Source: a virus. From it: a stretch of DNA of 64,000 nucleotides. The position numbers and the translations under genes were made by a program. Positions 22,396-43,685 of this stretch are shown here, piece after piece. The stretch lies in IMG/VR virus record IMGVR_UViG_3300006947_000007, positions 1 through 64,000 of that record. One strand, given 5' to 3'. The number at the start of each line of letters is the position of its first letter. Positions within the stretch are counted from its first letter, which is position 1. A model generated the notes under the pieces. It worked only from the letters and a program-made list of their open reading frames with translations. It made no database searches and was not told the origin of the DNA.

Positions 22396-23050
22396 AATAG
22401 TATCTCATCATTAACGAATCCCTATTAAAATCTGTTAAGTTATTAATAGGGTTAACTAAATGCCAAGAATCTTCACTTGGTTTAATACACCAAGCGACAT
22501 TAGGTATAAATGGTATAGTTTCAATTGTCATGTAACTAATCTTTACATTAAATGCGTTAAATTTCTTTAGTAACTTTAAACCCAACCCTGGATGGCTGTT
22601 GTCAATAGGACAGTATACTTGAAAGTTCAATAGTAATCCTTCATGATTCATATCTGTATGTGGTTTTAAATCTATAGTAATTTCTCTGACTAGTTCTGAC
22701 CCGCCTTTTGCTTCTTCTGTAATACCAAACTTGTTAAAGATTGCTTCTTTAACATTTACATTAGACAATAACACATCAACTTCCACATGTACACTATTTG
22801 CTTTATACATATCATAAGTTATTGTACCGGCTTCGTGTATGTTTTCCAATGTAGGGCTAAAGTCGCCTTTATTAGGTATTTCAATCTTTCGTATTGCTTT
22901 AAGATTGTCGTTTGTTAATTTATTATTTGCTTGGACTAATCTGTTATACAGATCAGCGGGTAAAAAGTCATGGATTATAAAATGATCGAAAGGTGCCGAT
23001 GACACCGTTGCTTTATTAATTTTGGATAGTATATGATCTAAATGTTTCAT
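22388..23050 (-). CDS. 2OG-Fe(II) oxygenase-like protein
   Basis: PFDHFIIHDFLP, PHTD (HxD), DSWH, R.S motif. Confidence 0.7.
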   Translation of the reverse strand: MKHLDHILSKINKATVSSAPFDHFIIHDFLPADLYNRLVQANNKLTNDNLKAIRKIEIPNKGDFSPTLENIHEAGTITYDMYKANSVHVEVDVLLSNVNVKEAIFNKFGITEEAKGGSELVREITIDLKPHTDMNHEGLLLNFQVYCPIDNSHPGLGLKLLKKFNAFNVKISYMTIETIPFIPNVAWCIKPSEDSWHLVNPINNLTDFNRDSLMMRYYSI

Positions 23051-23069: not shown

Positions 23070-23144
23070 TGGTACACCCTAGGAGAATCGAACTCCTCTT
23101 GATGGCATGAAAAGCCACAGTCCTAACCGATAGACGAAGGGTGC
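23070..23144 (-). tRNA. tRNA-Glu (anticodon UUC), CCA encoded
   Basis: GCACCCT..GTGGC-TTTTCAT-GCCAT..AGGAG-TTCGATT-CTCCT-AGGGTGT-ACCA cloverleaf. Confidence 0.95.
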
Positions 23145-23468
23145 TTAAACTGTTTCTATGTCGTCAGCTATTTTAACTGAGATAACGTTAGCCCAGATGA
23201 AACTGCGCCAGCCTTCTGCTTTGATATCCCACACACTTTGTAAGTGTTCCTTAACAGGCTTAGGTTCCTCACCCTCTGCTAATGGCTTAGGACGATTCTC
23301 TACAGGTATTGCCTCGGTTACAAGTGTACACGTCATTACACGCTGTTCACCGTTTTTCTTTGTAAATGTTACTTCCATGATATTTGAGCGTAAATCTTCT
23401 TTAACTTCAGAGTTACGTTCTGGATCATCAAATCCTATTTCTTCAAATAACTTCATTTGTACTGCCAT
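23145..23468 (-). CDS. WYL_2/Sm-like SH3-fold phage protein
   Basis: VTFTKKNGEQRVMTCTL..VWDIKAEGWRSF. Confidence 0.75.
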   Translation of the reverse strand: MAVQMKLFEEIGFDDPERNSEVKEDLRSNIMEVTFTKKNGEQRVMTCTLVTEAIPVENRPKPLAEGEEPKPVKEHLQSVWDIKAEGWRSFIWANVISVKIADDIETV

Positions 23469-39641: not shown

Positions 39642-40922
39642 CTATTCAATTAATTCGTGGTAGTGAGGGAAATGATCAGAGAATGATATTTTTCTTCTTT
39701 TCTCTAATATTTCAAATTGCTTCTTTGCTAATTGCTTAGCCTCTGTACTTACCTTACCGCTAACCATAGATTTCATATCCCGTAGAACCGATATGTATCC
39801 TTGTTTATCGTCAAATGTTCCAGACATGTCGATAAAATAATCTATTTGTTCTTGTATTGTGTTAGTGTGGCTAGGGTCTAAACCTAACACAGAAAGCCAC
39901 AACGGATCTTGTACCCGATTATGGTGCATTATTATTTCTTTATCGTAATCAAATTTATTAATTTTCTCATTCAAATATATCAAAAAATCCTTAAAGTATG
40001 GTAGACTTAAACTGTTATGAGCACAGCCAAATCCTAATATTAAATTTTTAGTTTCTTTTGATTGTTTAAAGAACGAGTCTACATTTTGGTTCCATTTATC
40101 AAAGTCCAGGCCCCATCTAATTAGTTCACTCCTCTTACCTAATGCTTCTCCGGAAAGTTGCATTTCATAACGAATGTTTGGGGTTCTCTTCACTAGCTCT
40201 ATAAACTTATCATACTTGTGTTTCGGAAAGTTTAAATTGGTTGTAACAACTAGTACAACTTCTTGCCCGTCGGTTATAGTGTCATTAATGTTAACTATAA
40301 ATTCTTCTATAAATTGATACATGTGATTTGTAAAGAATGGTTCGCCACCTAATAAACTAAAGGTTATAAAATCTTTATGTTTAAGAGTACTGTTCCACCA
40401 TTCATTTAATAATTGAAGTACTTTTTCAAATATAGCATCCTCTGTATCTGGGAATCGTCTACCTGTTTCTTTCTGCCAACGGCTACTCTGACCTTCCCAA
40501 CAATAGGCACATGCCATATTACATTTGTTTGTTAGTTCGAGTTCAACAAACTGAAATAGATCAGATGACAAGTCTAATTTTTTATTAAATAAGGGATTGT
40601 TTTTGCGAATATGCTCAGTTCTTGTACTAGTACCGCTCGCTTCTTCTGATTTCCAGCACCCAGAACAATCTGCGGATTGTATGCCGTTGCTTAATTCATA
40701 TTTTCTTTTTTGTAGCGTTGGGTGATTGAGTAAGAAATCTAAGCCTTTTGCTTCTAATATATCTAAATCAAATGTAACTTCAGCTCGCTGATCTTCTGTT
40801 AATTCTGTCTTACAACACCAGTTGACTGTTTTATTTGGCAGAGATATAATAAGATCGTTCCAAGTTTTGAAACACATTGTATCCGCATGATGTTCAGACT
40901 GCAAATGACTCGCCGCACCCAC
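39642..40922 (-). CDS. Radical SAM protein with N-terminal twitch/SPASM-like Cys cluster (start uncertain)
   Basis: C..WCC..CSGC then CNMACAYC, LGGEPF, TTN. Confidence 0.88.
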   Translation of the reverse strand: MGAASHLQSEHHADTMCFKTWNDLIISLPNKTVNWCCKTELTEDQRAEVTFDLDILEAKGLDFLLNHPTLQKRKYELSNGIQSADCSGCWKSEEASGTSTRTEHIRKNNPLFNKKLDLSSDLFQFVELELTNKCNMACAYCWEGQSSRWQKETGRRFPDTEDAIFEKVLQLLNEWWNSTLKHKDFITFSLLGGEPFFTNHMYQFIEEFIVNINDTITDGQEVVLVVTTNLNFPKHKYDKFIELVKRTPNIRYEMQLSGEALGKRSELIRWGLDFDKWNQNVDSFFKQSKETKNLILGFGCAHNSLSLPYFKDFLIYLNEKINKFDYDKEIIMHHNRVQDPLWLSVLGLDPSHTNTIQEQIDYFIDMSGTFDDKQGYISVLRDMKSMVSGKVSTEAKQLAKKQFEILEKRRKISFSDHFPHYHELIE

Positions 40923-41226
40923 AACTTGAAGTTGCTTGGGGGTTCTTAACTGCTAGGAACGATCCGCCTAGTTCTTGAACATAGTCAATAACACTACCCA
41001 AGACGTACATTTCAGCAAGTTTATTAATCATTAATCTATTATCGGAATCGTCGCTTAGTTGTACTTCGATCCATTCGTCTGGGTCTGTGATTTCATTGGC
41101 AAACTTCCAGTCGTATGTAAATCCACTACAGCCACCACCTTTTATAGTGAATGTGGCATATTTCTTATCATTTGTTGTTGTGGCGTTTAGCAAATAATCC
41201 TTTGCTTTGTCAGTTACGTCTATCAT
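40894..41226 (-). CDS. iscA: A-type Fe-S carrier (IscA/SufA/HesB family)
   Basis: GGGCSGFTY, GSVIDY, NPQATSSCGCGESF. Confidence 0.9.
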   Translation of the reverse strand: MIDVTDKAKDYLLNATTTNDKKYATFTIKGGGCSGFTYDWKFANEITDPDEWIEVQLSDDSDNRLMINKLAEMYVLGSVIDYVQELGGSFLAVKNPQATSSCGCGESFAV

Positions 41227-41260: not shown

Positions 41261-41596
41261 TCAATCTATGTGATGTACTTTTACGATTAGTGATTTGTCT
41301 GGTATTCCTCGTAAATCTACTTGGCACCCTAGTCTGCTTTTACCTTCTACATATCCTGGTGAATAATCTAAAAGGTCCAATTCAGCAAGTGGGATTTTGC
41401 CATGTTCCATTTCTCCTAAGAGCTCGTATCCTTTTATTACTTCTATATGGCAGGTAGCACATATACAACTTCCTCCACAATCACCCCAAGGTTCTCCCTT
41501 GAAGTGATCGTAGAGTGCTACCATTATGTTGTCGTTCTCACCATATTCAACATCAAACTCACGGCCTGACCTTGTAATACACTTGAACGTGGTCAT
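41261..41596 (-). CDS. fdx: Adrenodoxin/ISC-type [2Fe-2S] ferredoxin (start revised)
   Basis: CGGSCICATCH and SRLGCQ. Confidence 0.9.
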   Translation of the reverse strand: MTTFKCITRSGREFDVEYGENDNIMVALYDHFKGEPWGDCGGSCICATCHIEVIKGYELLGEMEHGKIPLAELDLLDYSPGYVEGKSRLGCQVDLRGIPDKSLIVKVHHID

Positions 41597-41598
41597 AA

Positions 41599-41757
41599 CT
41601 AGCCTTTCGTTAGTACTTGGTAGGCGCCGTAGGCTATTGCGGCATAGGCGGCGTATGTAACCCATCCACCTAAAAATAGTATAACTAATCCTACAGCAAC
41701 TAATCCTAGTCCACCATGAGATGCTTTCTCTTTCATTCTACTTGTAATAAAATCCAT
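41599..41757 (-). CDS. Small 2-TM protein
   Basis: AAGGAG SD before MDFITSR. Confidence 0.65.
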   Translation of the reverse strand: MDFITSRMKEKASHGGLGLVAVGLVILFLGGWVTYAAYAAIAYGAYQVLTKG

Positions 41758-41796: not shown

Positions 41797-42357
41797 TTAA
41801 GCATTTTCTAATACTTTCCTTATGCTTAAAACCTTTTGCTTAATCAAATCCACATAGTCTGGATTTGTACTCCATTTACTAAGGAGCTCTATTTGTTTGT
41901 TTATATTGAGTGAGTTAGTTTCTAATTGAATAGCTCTTTCAGTTCTAAAGAGCTCATAAGCATGATGCCCATTAATAGTATTTACCATATTTTTAACTGA
42001 TTCACACTTGTTTTTGAACGCTCTAACACCCCATACAGCGTCTGGATCGCCTAATGGCTTTAGTTGAGGTATATCTTTATTCCAAGTTCTAATACCAAAC
42101 AAGTTATTACCTTCGTTAGCAAATCTACTCTTGCCGTACCCAGATTCCATTACTGCCATAGATATAATAATCTCACTACTTATTTGCTGATCAGGGTCAA
42201 TATCTAAATTTACATATTTAATACAGTTATTTACAGCTAATACAAATTCATTGTTATTAGTATATTTCATGGTAGTTGAATGATTAGAAATATTGCCAAC
42301 ACTTGCTGTAACTATTGTTAACAGAATCGCAATAAGTATTCCTTGATTTTTATTCAT
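41797..42357 (-). CDS. Exported glucosaminidase-domain (Bax/GH73-like) protein
   Basis: Signal peptide; ESGYGKSRFA..GNNLFGI. Confidence 0.8.
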   Translation of the reverse strand: MNKNQGILIAILLTIVTASVGNISNHSTTMKYTNNNEFVLAVNNCIKYVNLDIDPDQQISSEIIISMAVMESGYGKSRFANEGNNLFGIRTWNKDIPQLKPLGDPDAVWGVRAFKNKCESVKNMVNTINGHHAYELFRTERAIQLETNSLNINKQIELLSKWSTNPDYVDLIKQKVLSIRKVLENA

Positions 42358-42358
42358 A

Positions 42359-42865
42359 CTATACCTTTTTACCTGCTGTTAAGAGTTCTTCCCTCGAAAC
42401 AACCATGTAAGGTCCTTTATTATAAGCAGGGACAACCGAATATTGTTTGCTAATTTCAATTCTTTCAGCTTGTTCTTTCCAACTACGTTGTTCAGATCCG
42501 TGACTGGGAACCGTGGCAGAGGTGAACGGATTCGAACCGCTAGTTTTGGATTTGGAATCCAACGTGTTACCATTAACACTACACCCCTTGAATGGTTCTC
42601 TTAATAGTGTTGGACCTGAAACAAGTTTATTAACTATTGGTGTATGTTTATTTTGATATGCTTGTTTAGGTTTATAATAGCCCTGAACATAATCAATGTA
42701 TTCAGTAAGAGTCATTTGAAGACCATGTAGGTGTTGTTTTCTTAGATGTTTATTATATGCTTTAAGGTCTTTAGATAGTTTTATCTTTTCTTTCTCAGAT
42801 ACAATCTTACGTTTATACTTTTTTGTATTTAACGAGGTCATCCCCCGTACCAAACCCATGGTCAT
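42359..42865 (-). CDS. Conserved phage protein containing an in-frame tRNA
   Basis: N-term MGLVRGMTSLNTKK and C-term PAYNKGPYMVV motif of T4-like marine phage proteins; frame open across the tRNA. Confidence 0.7.
   Translation of the reverse strand: MTMGLVRGMTSLNTKKYKRKIVSEKEKIKLSKDLKAYNKHLRKQHLHGLQMTLTEYIDYVQGYYKPKQAYQNKHTPIVNKLVSGPTLLREPFKGCSVNGNTLDSKSKTSGSNPFTSATVPSHGSEQRSWKEQAERIEISKQYSVVPAYNKGPYMVVSREELLTAGKKV
42514..42588 (-). tRNA. tRNA-Trp (anticodon CCA), CCA end encoded, nested in CDS
   Basis: AGGGGTG-TA-GTGT..ACAC-G-TTGGA-TTCCAAA-TCCAA-AACT-AGCGG-TTCGAAT-CCGTT-CACCTCT-GCCA. Confidence 0.95.
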
Positions 42866-42866
42866 A

Positions 42867-43118
42867 TTAGATAGCTTTCTTGAAAGTTACTTCGTCGAAC
42901 TTGTTATGATCCTCTTTATTAAATATGATATTGGACATTCCAAAATCAGTAGGAGCAAAAGTATCTTCGAATATTTTAAATTCTGATAACTTATATTCTA
43001 GCATTAATGTTAGGATATTAACAACTGCTGTTTTGTTCTTAATATCGTTTATGGAACCCGGAGCAAGTAACTTTAATACCTTCTCCAGGTCCTCTATATC
43101 TTTTAATACGTCTATCAT
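42867..43118 (-). CDS. Hypothetical protein
   Basis: In-operon ORF. Confidence 0.6.
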   Translation of the reverse strand: MIDVLKDIEDLEKVLKLLAPGSINDIKNKTAVVNILTLMLEYKLSEFKIFEDTFAPTDFGMSNIIFNKEDHNKFDEVTFKKAI

Positions 43119-43119
43119 A

Positions 43120-43584
43120 TTAAAATTCGTGTGTATAATTAGCGTAATACTTAACGTTATCTATCATCCAGCTTATTGTTGAATGAGAGTAAACTTCCTG
43201 CCTAGATTCTTCATATCTAGTTTGTACTGTACAAATTGTTTGAGTTTGCCCGTTAGTAGTTGGCTTATTCTTGTTAGCTACATCGGCACCAATGATAGCA
43301 CCTAATATAGTTGCGGCATCGTTACCTTTGCCTTTACCTACTTGGTTACCAATAACACCGCCAATGATAGCACCAAACAATACATCGGCACTTGAAGCGC
43401 CAGTACCATTAGTGTACACTTGCTTACAAACTTCAACATTGTACGGTACTTGGCTTATTACTGTTTTCATATGATGATAAACATTAGGCCTTTCTACTCT
43501 TCCCGAATTTAAATCAGCCATTGCTGACGCGGCTACCAATGTTAACATTGTACTAGCAATTATTACTTTGATTGTATTTTTCAT
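43120..43584 (-). CDS. Exported glycine-zipper 2TM protein
   Basis: Signal peptide; GAIIGGVIGNQVGKGKG..AATILGAIIGA. Confidence 0.85.
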   Translation of the reverse strand: MKNTIKVIIASTMLTLVAASAMADLNSGRVERPNVYHHMKTVISQVPYNVEVCKQVYTNGTGASSADVLFGAIIGGVIGNQVGKGKGNDAATILGAIIGADVANKNKPTTNGQTQTICTVQTRYEESRQEVYSHSTISWMIDNVKYYANYTHEF

Positions 43585-43618: not shown

Positions 43619-43685
43619 ATTATACACTATACAGGCCAAAAGTCAACCATTTTCTCGTCTTTTTTGTCAATATAACCTGTTGATT
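43619..43685 (-). promoter_or_regulatory. Early promoter TTGACT-16-TATAAT with upstream IHF consensus site
   Basis: AATCAA-CAGG-TTA at 43673-43685 (minus strand), 26 bp upstream of -35. Confidence 0.75.

What the first reader, a model, noticed from the sequence alone, without database searches (positions are those of the whole stretch)
42359..42865. Intact tRNA-Trp nested in-frame, same strand, inside a protein-coding gene
Seen: a canonical 75-nt (multiple of 3) tRNA-Trp(CCA) with encoded CCA at 42514-42588 lies inside a 168-aa ORF with no stop. It is read roughly as KGCSVNGNTLDSKSKTSGSNPFTSAT, between a basic N-terminal region and the PAYNKGPYMVV C-terminal motif. The flanks GAACC/GGTTC could extend the acceptor stem. 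The protein has a single Trp codon, shortly downstream of the tRNA. Inference: each transcript yields either protein or tRNA, because RNase P/E processing would destroy the mRNA. This could be a translation-versus-processing switch, for example releasing tRNA when ribosome traffic drops, or a tolerated insertion into a linker.
Basis: partly seen in the sequence, partly recalled or inferred. Interest (0 to 1): 0.8.

Follow-up and report, generated by a model that had tools for sequence, protein, structure and literature searches.

The report
tRNA gene nested inside phage gene
A working-looking tryptophan tRNA gene lies in frame inside the floppy middle of a small conserved marine-phage protein gene, and relatives of that gene carry Trp, Pro, Ala, Thr, Asp or Glu tRNAs at the same spot with the frame always open, so the same DNA is kept by selection as both tRNA and protein code.

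Summary
A canonical tRNA-Trp(CCA) at 42514-42588 (-) lies inside the 168-aa ORF 42359-42865 (-).

- **The ORF is a real gene.** It belongs to a large unnamed family of SAR11/OM43-type marine myophages. In relatives the N-terminal helical domain and the C-terminal PAYNKGPYMVV domain always form one gene.
- **The tRNA sits in a linker.** The linker is hypervariable and predicted to be disordered.
- **The nesting recurs.** It appears in several separate clades of the family and in the cultured phage Melnitz. The tRNAs are Trp, Pro, Ala, Thr, Asp and Glu, and some genes hold Glu+Ala in tandem.
- **The frame is always open.** All 44 tRNAs found next to the C-terminal motif lie on the coding strand, fully inside the ORF.
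- **Selection is dual.** The cloverleaf is kept by compensatory changes. The flanking domains show dN/dS of 0.04-0.5. The tRNA segment shows about 10-fold lower dS and dN/dS near 1.
- **Splicing-like excision is excluded.** The tRNA lengths are 74-77 nt.

I read it as a functional tRNA parked in a permissive linker, where each transcript is either processed or translated. A dedicated switch is not shown. The closest published case is selC nested in selB (Mukai 2021). This scan found the same family before on other DNA.

The parts
42359..42865 (-). 168-aa ORF of the unnamed 'AYNKG' family. Homologues include Mosig_00174, HTVC008M AGE60505 and Melnitz gene 124.
   Evidence: ORF list. 182 homologues at E<=0.01, many covering 100% of the query. 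354 clusters at 50% identity at E<=1e-3. Flanks have dN/dS of 0.04-0.5.
42514..42588 (-). tRNA-Trp(CCA), 75 nt, CCA encoded, nested in frame (ORF nt 278-352).
   Evidence: ARAGORN. Rfam 60.9 bits. Ten distinct nested tRNA-Trp sequences keep the cloverleaf: 98.6% of cells paired, 7 pairs with changes on both sides, 0 of 500 shuffles as good.
42589..42865 (-). Codons 1-92: basic N-terminus (KKYKRK), helical domain with the EYIDYVQGY motif, and the first part of the variable linker.
   Evidence: Alignment A2. AlphaFold2 pLDDT above 90 for residues 21-60.
42359..42513 (-). Codons 119-168 plus stop: end of the linker and the conserved C-terminal domain W..ERIEISKQY..PAYNKGPYMVV..TAGKKV. It has no start codon of its own.
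   Evidence: Invariant columns in A2. No in-frame ATG, GTG or TTG between codon 102 and codon 154.
42594..42598 (-). GAACC, 5' flank, pairs with GGTTC in the predicted fold.
   Evidence: Minimum-free-energy fold. Not conserved in other loci.
42508..42512 (-). GGTTC, 3' flank partner.
43619..43646 (-). Sigma-70-like promoter (TTGACT, 16 nt spacer, TATAAT; 11 of 12 matches) upstream of the gene run that contains the ORF.
   Evidence: Consensus scan only. Function inferred.
42867..43584 (-). Two upstream genes of the same tightly packed run: a glycine-zipper 2TM protein (43120-43584) and an 83-aa unknown (42867-43118). The unknown's stop lies 1 nt before the ORF's ATG.
41797..42357 (-). Downstream gene: glucosaminidase-type endolysin. 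It starts 1 nt after the ORF's stop.
   Evidence: PF01832, 48.9 bits.

Best explanation
A functional tRNA-Trp gene is lodged, same strand and in frame, in the disordered, hypervariable linker between the two conserved domains of a small phage protein of unknown function.

**How it works.** The gene sits in a tightly packed polycistronic run, so one primary transcript is both pre-tRNA and mRNA. Copies that fold and are cut by RNase P (5') and trimmed at the 3' end (CCA is encoded) yield the tRNA and lose the message. Copies that ribosomes read first yield the full protein. In those copies the 25-26 tRNA-coded residues simply serve as linker.

**What selection acts on.** It acts on the RNA shape inside the tRNA, on the protein outside it, and on keeping the frame open across it.

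**How it spreads.** Linker alleles with or without a tRNA, and with different tRNAs, appear to be exchanged between related phages by recombination in the conserved domain-coding flanks. That would explain the patchy distribution.

**Shown:** the anatomy, the recurrence and the dual selection. **Inferred:** processing, mutually exclusive fates and recombinational spread.
For: - **The tRNA is real.**. Its stems covary: 7 pairs with double changes, 98.6% of cells paired, 0 of 500 shuffles as good, and 43-54% paired when the partners are slid.
- **The ORF is one gene in relatives.**. The profile finds 354 clusters.
- **The linker is disordered.** pLDDT is below 50 over residues 72-83, 87-89 and 91-114.
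- **The nesting recurs.**
  - tRNA-Trp in 3 viral and 13 metagenome loci, and tRNA-Pro in L172.
  - Ala, Thr, Asp, Glu and tandem Glu+Ala in the AYNKGAYQVI branch.
  - Cultured Melnitz gene 124 holds a 74-nt tRNA-Trp.
- **The frame is kept.** 44 of 44 tRNAs lie inside the ORF on the coding strand. All 17 loci found by a DNA pattern that sets no frame or open-ORF condition upstream of the C-terminal motif were open; one of them, L171, is cut by its contig end.
- **Selection differs by segment.** In the flanks dN/dS is 0.04-0.5, with dS near 1 or saturated for all but the closest pairs. In the tRNA segment dS is 0-0.25 among the 76-nt tRNAs and dN/dS is about 1.
- **The C domain has no start of its own**.
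- **Excision is excluded.** 76- and 77-nt tRNAs keep the frame only if they stay in the mRNA.
- **Recombination is plausible.** L176 is a mosaic: its N part resembles tRNA-less L085, and its tRNA and C part resemble L170. The tree needs at least 5 state changes.
- **Weak RNA evidence.** Contigs from RNA libraries cover 42646-42846 and 42390-42540. The second runs 27 nt into the tRNA's 3' part.
Against: - No direct evidence exists that the mature tRNA or the full-length protein is made. The RNA-library contigs are short, may be contaminating DNA, and fall 4 nt short of the 31 nt needed to count as bridging.
- The protein's function is unknown, so a functional tie to tRNAs cannot be excluded.
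- Six tRNA identities in one gene family is more than a purely passive 'any permissive linker will do' model predicts. The other two tRNAs of this phage record are intergenic.
- The share of tRNA-bearing alleles cannot be estimated without bias, because the P0244 query itself contained tRNA-coded peptide.
Confidence: 0.7

Rival explanations
1. Evolved coupling. The family is a dedicated tRNA-carrier gene, and competition between ribosome transit and RNase P processing acts as a switch. Either tRNA is released when translation drops, or the protein acts on tRNAs and its dose is tied to tRNA output, as proposed for selB/selC.
For: - At least six tRNA identities, and tandem pairs, have settled in this one family, always upstream of the same C domain and always in frame.
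- The N-terminus is strongly basic, which suits RNA binding.
- Mukai 2021 proposes the same logic for selB/selC.
Against: - Most family members carry no tRNA. That holds for most of the 120 listed homologues, and the viral contigs yielded only 3 hits to the T-loop pattern.
- No spacing is conserved between the tRNA and the downstream Trp codon, and Melnitz has no such Trp.
- The flank helix is not conserved.
- No fold or family match suggests a tRNA-related function.
Confidence: 0.2
2. The tRNA is no longer a working tRNA. It is a relic, or a tRNA-like structure kept for another reason, such as mRNA stability or a recombination or attachment site.
For: No expression data exist for the mature tRNA. 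With its flanks, the 76-nt form does not fold into a cloverleaf as its minimum-free-energy structure.
Against: - Rfam scores are 60.9-68.8 bits.
- The anticodon loop, T-loop and encoded CCA are invariant, and G73 and A1 (or G1) paired with U72 are kept.
- Seven stem pairs show compensatory changes across lineages.
- The tRNA is complete rather than a 3' fragment.
- The adjacent genes of the run show no integrase match.
Confidence: 0.05
3. In tRNA-bearing alleles the protein is not made. The ORF is a recently disrupted gene that only looks intact.
For: A 75-nt tRNA has two stop-free frames of three, so a single in-frame event could occur by luck.
Against: - 44 of 44 are in frame.
- Within clades where all members carry the tRNA, dS is about 0.8-2 while dN/dS is 0.07-0.2 in both flanks (for example L087 against L177, and L169 against L177).
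- The C domain has no start codon of its own, yet it stays conserved.
Confidence: 0.04
4. The tRNA is removed from the mRNA like an intron, and the halves are rejoined, for example by a phage RNA ligase.
For: In the window the tRNA is 75 nt, a multiple of 3.
Against: Relatives carry 74-, 76- and 77-nt tRNAs, and tandem pairs. In these the conserved C domain is in frame only if the tRNA stays in the message.
Confidence: 0.01

Closest known systems
selC (tRNA-Sec) nested inside the selB ORF of Alphaproteobacteria (Mukai 2021, Int J Mol Sci 22:4605, PMC8124441; read)
   Same: A whole tRNA lies on the coding strand inside a protein ORF, is translated as extra residues, and comes in lengths that are not always multiples of 3. 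That paper, also purely bioinformatic, proposes that tRNA processing and translation of the ORF are alternatives.
   Different: In selB the tRNA-coded peptide is a C-terminal extension after the last domain, and the protein is the tRNA's own elongation factor. Here the tRNA lies between two conserved domains, so the C domain depends on read-through. The host is a phage gene of unknown function, and six different ordinary elongator tRNAs occupy the same spot.
tRNA genes overlapping or embedded in protein genes of compact mitochondrial genomes (as cited in Mukai 2021; otherwise from my own knowledge)
   Same: Genome compaction, with one transcript serving both as tRNA precursor and as mRNA.
   Different: Mitochondrial overlaps are mostly short and lie at gene ends. 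Here the nesting is complete, internal and in frame, and it is maintained under measurable dual selection.
Phage T4-type tRNA clusters processed from polycistronic transcripts (my own knowledge)
   Same: Phage tRNAs are co-transcribed with ORFs and released by host RNase P and 3' processing.
   Different: In T4 the tRNAs lie between ORFs. Here the tRNA is inside one, although this phage's tRNA-Glu and tRNA-Arg are intergenic.
Methylophilales phage Melnitz gene 124 / tRNA gene 125 (MZ577097.1; Buchholz et al. 2022, PMC9004378)
   Same: Same gene family (hhalign probability 98.2%), with a tRNA-Trp(CCA) inside the annotated CDS.
   Different: The tRNA is a different 74-nt sequence and the C-terminal domain is divergent (AYNKGGLQV). 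The paper lists the tRNA but does not comment on the nesting.

Membership tests
tRNA (Rfam RF00005), tryptophan acceptor | Covariance-model score above the family's gathering score | tested here: met
   60.9 bits against 29.
tRNA (Rfam RF00005), tryptophan acceptor | Anticodon CCA in a 7-nt loop | tested here: met
   ARAGORN places cca at position 34. The loop UUCCAAA is visible.
tRNA (Rfam RF00005), tryptophan acceptor | Cloverleaf maintained by compensatory substitutions among homologues | tested here: met
   7 pairs with changes on both sides, 98.6% of cells paired, 0 of 500 shuffles as good.
tRNA (Rfam RF00005), tryptophan acceptor | Bacterial tRNA-Trp identity elements G73 and A1-U72 (from my own knowledge of E. 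coli TrpRS recognition) | tested here: met
   The sequence shows A1, U72, G73 and CCA. Some relatives have G1-U72.
tRNA (Rfam RF00005), tryptophan acceptor | Mature, aminoacylated tRNA is produced | not testable with these tools
   Only short RNA-library contigs were available.
Unnamed 'AYNKG' phage protein family (Mosig_00174, HTVC008M AGE60505, Melnitz_124) | Full-length sequence homology, with the N-terminal K-rich segment plus EYIDYVQG helix domain | tested here: met
   Homologues cover 90-100% of the query, with E values down to 1e-85. Conserved columns in A2.
Unnamed 'AYNKG' phage protein family (Mosig_00174, HTVC008M AGE60505, Melnitz_124) | C-terminal W..E..ISK.Y..PAYNKGPYMVV motif | tested here: met
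   Invariant columns W129, P146-V156.
Nested tRNA-in-ORF of the selB/selC type (Mukai 2021) | Entire tRNA on the coding strand inside the ORF | tested here: met
Nested tRNA-in-ORF of the selB/selC type (Mukai 2021) | The tRNA-coded residues form a C-terminal extension of the protein | tested here: not met
   The tRNA is internal, at codons 93-118 of 168, followed by a conserved domain.
Nested tRNA-in-ORF of the selB/selC type (Mukai 2021) | The host protein acts on the nested tRNA | tested here: inconclusive
   No family or fold match for the protein.
Phage attachment site overlapping a tRNA gene | Partial (3') tRNA copy next to an integrase | tested here: not met
   The tRNA is complete. The genes between 40894 and 45361 that were scanned show no integrase match. 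The relatives are T4-like lytic myophages.

The most novel reading that the evidence does not exclude
The AYNKG-family ORF is a dedicated tRNA carrier. Ribosomes reading through the embedded tRNA compete with RNase P, so each transcript commits either to tRNA or to protein. The phage thereby ties tRNA supply to translational load, or the protein itself acts on tRNAs. Linker cassettes carrying different tRNAs are swapped among co-infecting phages as a modular tRNA-exchange site.
Probability: 0.2. Interest if true: 0.85.

Novelty: new variant of a known kind. Interest (0 to 1): 0.7.

Why it matters
- **Annotation.** Annotation pipelines usually treat a tRNA inside an ORF as a sign that the ORF is spurious. 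Here both are real. One 75-nt stretch is under RNA-level selection while it is also read as protein, and it lies between two conserved domains, so the protein cannot be made without translating the tRNA.
- **Generality.** The layout recurs with six tRNA identities in abundant ocean phages. That makes it a natural system for asking how ribosomes, RNase P and RNA folding compete on one transcript, and how phages acquire and exchange tRNAs.
- **Testability.** Phage Melnitz and its OM43 host are in culture, so the idea can be tested at the bench.

Tried and rejected
- I used DNA-pattern scans instead.
- **tRNA relics.** I looked for them in 11 tRNA-less loci with all Rfam models at E<=10 and found none. 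'The linker is a decayed tRNA' is therefore unsupported, though short relics could escape detection.
- **Broader T-loop patterns.** Two more scans of the viral contigs gave nothing new.
- **Protein function.** PHROGs, Pfam, Foldseek against PDB, VIA wide (best Z 3.9), BFVD (best E 2.6e-3, TM 0.22) and the ESM Atlas gave nothing usable.
- **Flank helix.** GAACC/GGTTC as an extended acceptor stem is not conserved.
- **Trp-codon stalling.** Spacing is not conserved, and W129 is invariant regardless of the tRNA.
- **RNA evidence.** The four RNA runs gave only 151-262-nt contigs. None spans the whole ORF, and uncovered parts prove nothing.
- **Literature.** Searches for a published phage case found none. 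The library is incomplete.
- **Pure insertion.** This does not fit. In L176 against L085, and in L172 against Mosig, the tRNA replaces a linker stretch of similar length. In the window the net gain is about 17-22 aa.

Full report
**Observation**

- ARAGORN finds tRNA-Trp(cca) at 42514-42588 on the - strand. Rfam's tRNA model scores it at 60.9 bits against a gathering score of 29.
- The ORF 42359-42865 (-) is 168 aa. The tRNA fills ORF nt 278-352, from codon 93 position 2 to codon 118 position 1.
- Two of the tRNA's three frames are free of stops.
- No in-frame ATG, GTG or TTG lies between codon 102, which is inside the tRNA, and codon 154. The conserved C-terminal domain can therefore only be made by reading through the tRNA.

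**Setting**

- The window belongs to an 82.4-kb IMG/VR virus record rated 23% complete.
- Its nearest isolates are the Pelagibacter myophages HTVC008M and Mosig.
- The ORF is the third gene of a tightly packed minus-strand run. Start and stop codons of neighbouring genes are 1 nt apart.
- A sigma-70-like promoter with 11 of 12 matches lies at 43646-43619, upstream of the run. A glucosaminidase-type endolysin follows the ORF.
- The record's other two tRNAs are intergenic: Glu at 23070-23144, and Arg(TCT) outside the window.

**The ORF is a real gene**

- A search of 5.8 billion proteins gave 182 homologues at E<=0.01. Many cover 90-100% of the query and are 125-168 aa long.
- A profile search gave 354 clusters at 50% identity.
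- The N-terminal basic and helical part (EYIDYVQGY) and the C-terminal W..ERIEISKQY..PAYNKGPYMVV..TAGKKV part are conserved. They always occur together in one protein.
- The segment between them varies in length and sequence.
- AlphaFold2 gives pLDDT above 90 for residues 21-60, about 65-80 for 121-160, and below 50 for 72-83, 87-89 and 91-114. The low-confidence stretch is the linker that holds the tRNA-coded residues 93-118.
- No Pfam, PHROG, PDB, BFVD or Atlas match gives a function.

**The nesting recurs**

- Most homologues have no tRNA.
- Eight protein clusters among the best 120 carry a linker that reads like a translated tRNA.
- I scanned with a DNA pattern consisting of the T-loop, a 95-125 nt gap and the back-translated AYNKGPYMV motif. 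The pattern sets no condition on the frame or on an open ORF upstream of the motif.
  - It found 3 viral and 14 metagenome loci.
  - All 17 have a tRNA on the coding strand inside an ORF that is open from the family's N-terminus to its C-terminus. One, L171, is cut by its contig end.
  - Sixteen carry a 76-nt tRNA-Trp. One, L172, from the Mosig-like branch, carries a 77-nt tRNA-Pro(TGG) read in a different frame, which points to an independent capture.
- A second scan was seeded with P0244, a profile hit.
  - In the AYNKGAYQVI branch, 24 of 51 distinct ORFs hold nested tRNAs: Ala(TGC) in 11, Thr(TGT) in 6, Asp(GTC) in 2, Glu(TTC) in 1, and Glu+Ala in tandem in 4.
  - This sample is biased towards tRNA carriers, because the query itself contained tRNA-coded peptide.
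- Over all loci fetched, 177 distinct family genes have 44 tRNAs within 400 nt upstream of the motif. All 44 are on the same strand and fully inside the ORF. None is separated by a stop, partly overlapped, or on the opposite strand.
- Following a lead from earlier notes of this scan, I checked the cultured phage Melnitz.
  - The annotated CDS 68376-68819 of MZ577097.1 (gene 124) contains a 74-nt tRNA-Trp.
  - That CDS is a family member (hhalign probability 98.2%).
  - The paper lists the tRNA as gene 125 and does not mention the nesting.

**Dual selection**

- Ten distinct nested tRNA-Trp sequences keep the cloverleaf. 98.6% of cells are paired, and 7 of 21 pairs have changes on both sides. 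None of 500 shuffles does as well, and only 43-54% are paired when the partners are slid.
- I computed Nei-Gojobori estimates on 12 tRNA-bearing genes.
  - In the N and C flanks dN/dS is 0.04-0.5, with dS near 1 or saturated for all but the closest pairs.
  - In the tRNA segment dS is only 0-0.25 among the 76-nt tRNAs, and dN/dS is about 0.2-2.4.
- The tRNA segment is therefore constrained as RNA and the flanks as protein.
- The flank signal holds within clades whose members all carry the tRNA. L087 against L177 gives dN/dS 0.09 and 0.18. L169 against L177 gives 0.11 and 0.13.
- The gene therefore kept working as a gene with the tRNA in place.

**Evolution**

- On a tree built with the tRNA-coded residues masked, carriers fall into at least five clusters:
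  - the window plus P0002;
  - three clusters with the 76-nt tRNA-Trp;
  - the tRNA-Pro allele.
- The tree needs at least 5 state changes, and starred branches force 3.
- L176 is a mosaic. Its N part resembles tRNA-less L085. Its tRNA is identical to that of L170, and its C part is close to L170's.
- In L176 against L085, and in L172 against Mosig, the tRNA replaces a linker stretch of similar length rather than adding to it.
- No tRNA relic is detectable in tRNA-less linkers.
- I infer that linker alleles are exchanged by recombination in the conserved flanks. Gains and losses cannot be separated without a root.

**Mechanism**

- tRNA lengths of 74, 75, 76 and 77 nt, and tandem pairs, all keep the frame only if the tRNA stays in the message. 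This excludes intron-like removal.
- By established knowledge of RNase P and 3' processing, releasing the tRNA cuts the mRNA. A given transcript therefore gives either the tRNA or the full protein. This step is inferred, not measured.
- RNA-library contigs identical to the window cover 42646-42846 (runs X15 and X16) and 42390-42540 (run X17). The second reaches 27 nt into the tRNA's 3' part. This is weak support, below the 31-nt bridging rule, and it could be DNA carry-over.
  - W129 is invariant with or without a tRNA, its spacing from the tRNA varies, and Melnitz lacks it.
  - The GAACC/GGTTC helix is seen only in the window.

**Comparison with what is known**

- The closest published case is Mukai 2021 (PMC8124441). 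It describes selC nested in selB and calls this the first nested tRNA in a bacterial ORF.
- That tRNA forms a C-terminal extension of a protein that binds the same tRNA.
- Here the tRNA lies between two conserved domains of a phage protein of unknown function, and six ordinary tRNAs use the same spot.
- My literature searches found no published phage case. The library is incomplete.
- This scan has reported the same family and layout on other DNA. I re-tested the Melnitz claim and the multi-tRNA claim, and both held.

**Verdict**

It is a new variant of a known kind (a nested tRNA in an ORF), and it is testable in culture. Interest 0.7.

Noticed in passing
L185:1330-1716, L186:1167-1538, L188:241-612, L199:1345-1722: Two tRNAs in tandem, Glu(TTC) 77 nt and Ala(TGC) 76 nt, lie 5-8 nt apart inside one short ORF. 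The ORF begins MIIKGSLNYD with a basic peptide and ends with the AYNKGAYQVI domain, and it is open throughout.
   Followed up: partly
L180:1417-1860 (MZ577097.1 68376-68819): In the cultured phage Melnitz, the annotated CDS gene 124 contains tRNA-Trp (gene 125 of the paper). The publication does not mention the overlap.
   Followed up: yes
window 40894-41226 (-) and 41261-41665 (-): The phage encodes an IscA/HesB-type Fe-S cluster assembly protein (PF01521, 39.5 bits) next to a 2Fe-2S ferredoxin-like protein (PF00111, 22.5 bits), just downstream of the endolysin gene.
   Followed up: no
window 43120-43584 (-): A 154-aa protein with a signal-like N-terminus and a glycine-zipper 2TM domain (PF05433, 32.8 bits) is the first gene behind the promoter-like site at 43646-43619.
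   Followed up: no
L176:4653-5099 compared with L085:2501-2938 and L170:2949-3413: This gene is a mosaic. Its 5' half resembles a tRNA-less allele and its 3' half, tRNA included, resembles a tRNA-bearing allele. That suggests recombination inside the gene.
   Followed up: partly
whole record (G000, 82405 bases) and L005/L083 contig (328149 bases): CheckV rates the 82-kb record as 23% complete, and a relative with the nested tRNA-Trp lies on a 328-kb viral contig. These carriers may be very large phages rather than the 140-kb HTVC008M type.
   Followed up: no
window 23070-23144 (-): tRNA-Glu(TTC) fills the gap between two ORFs almost exactly. The upstream ORF ends at 23145 and the next begins at 23050. 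This shows how little intergenic room this genome has.
   Followed up: partly
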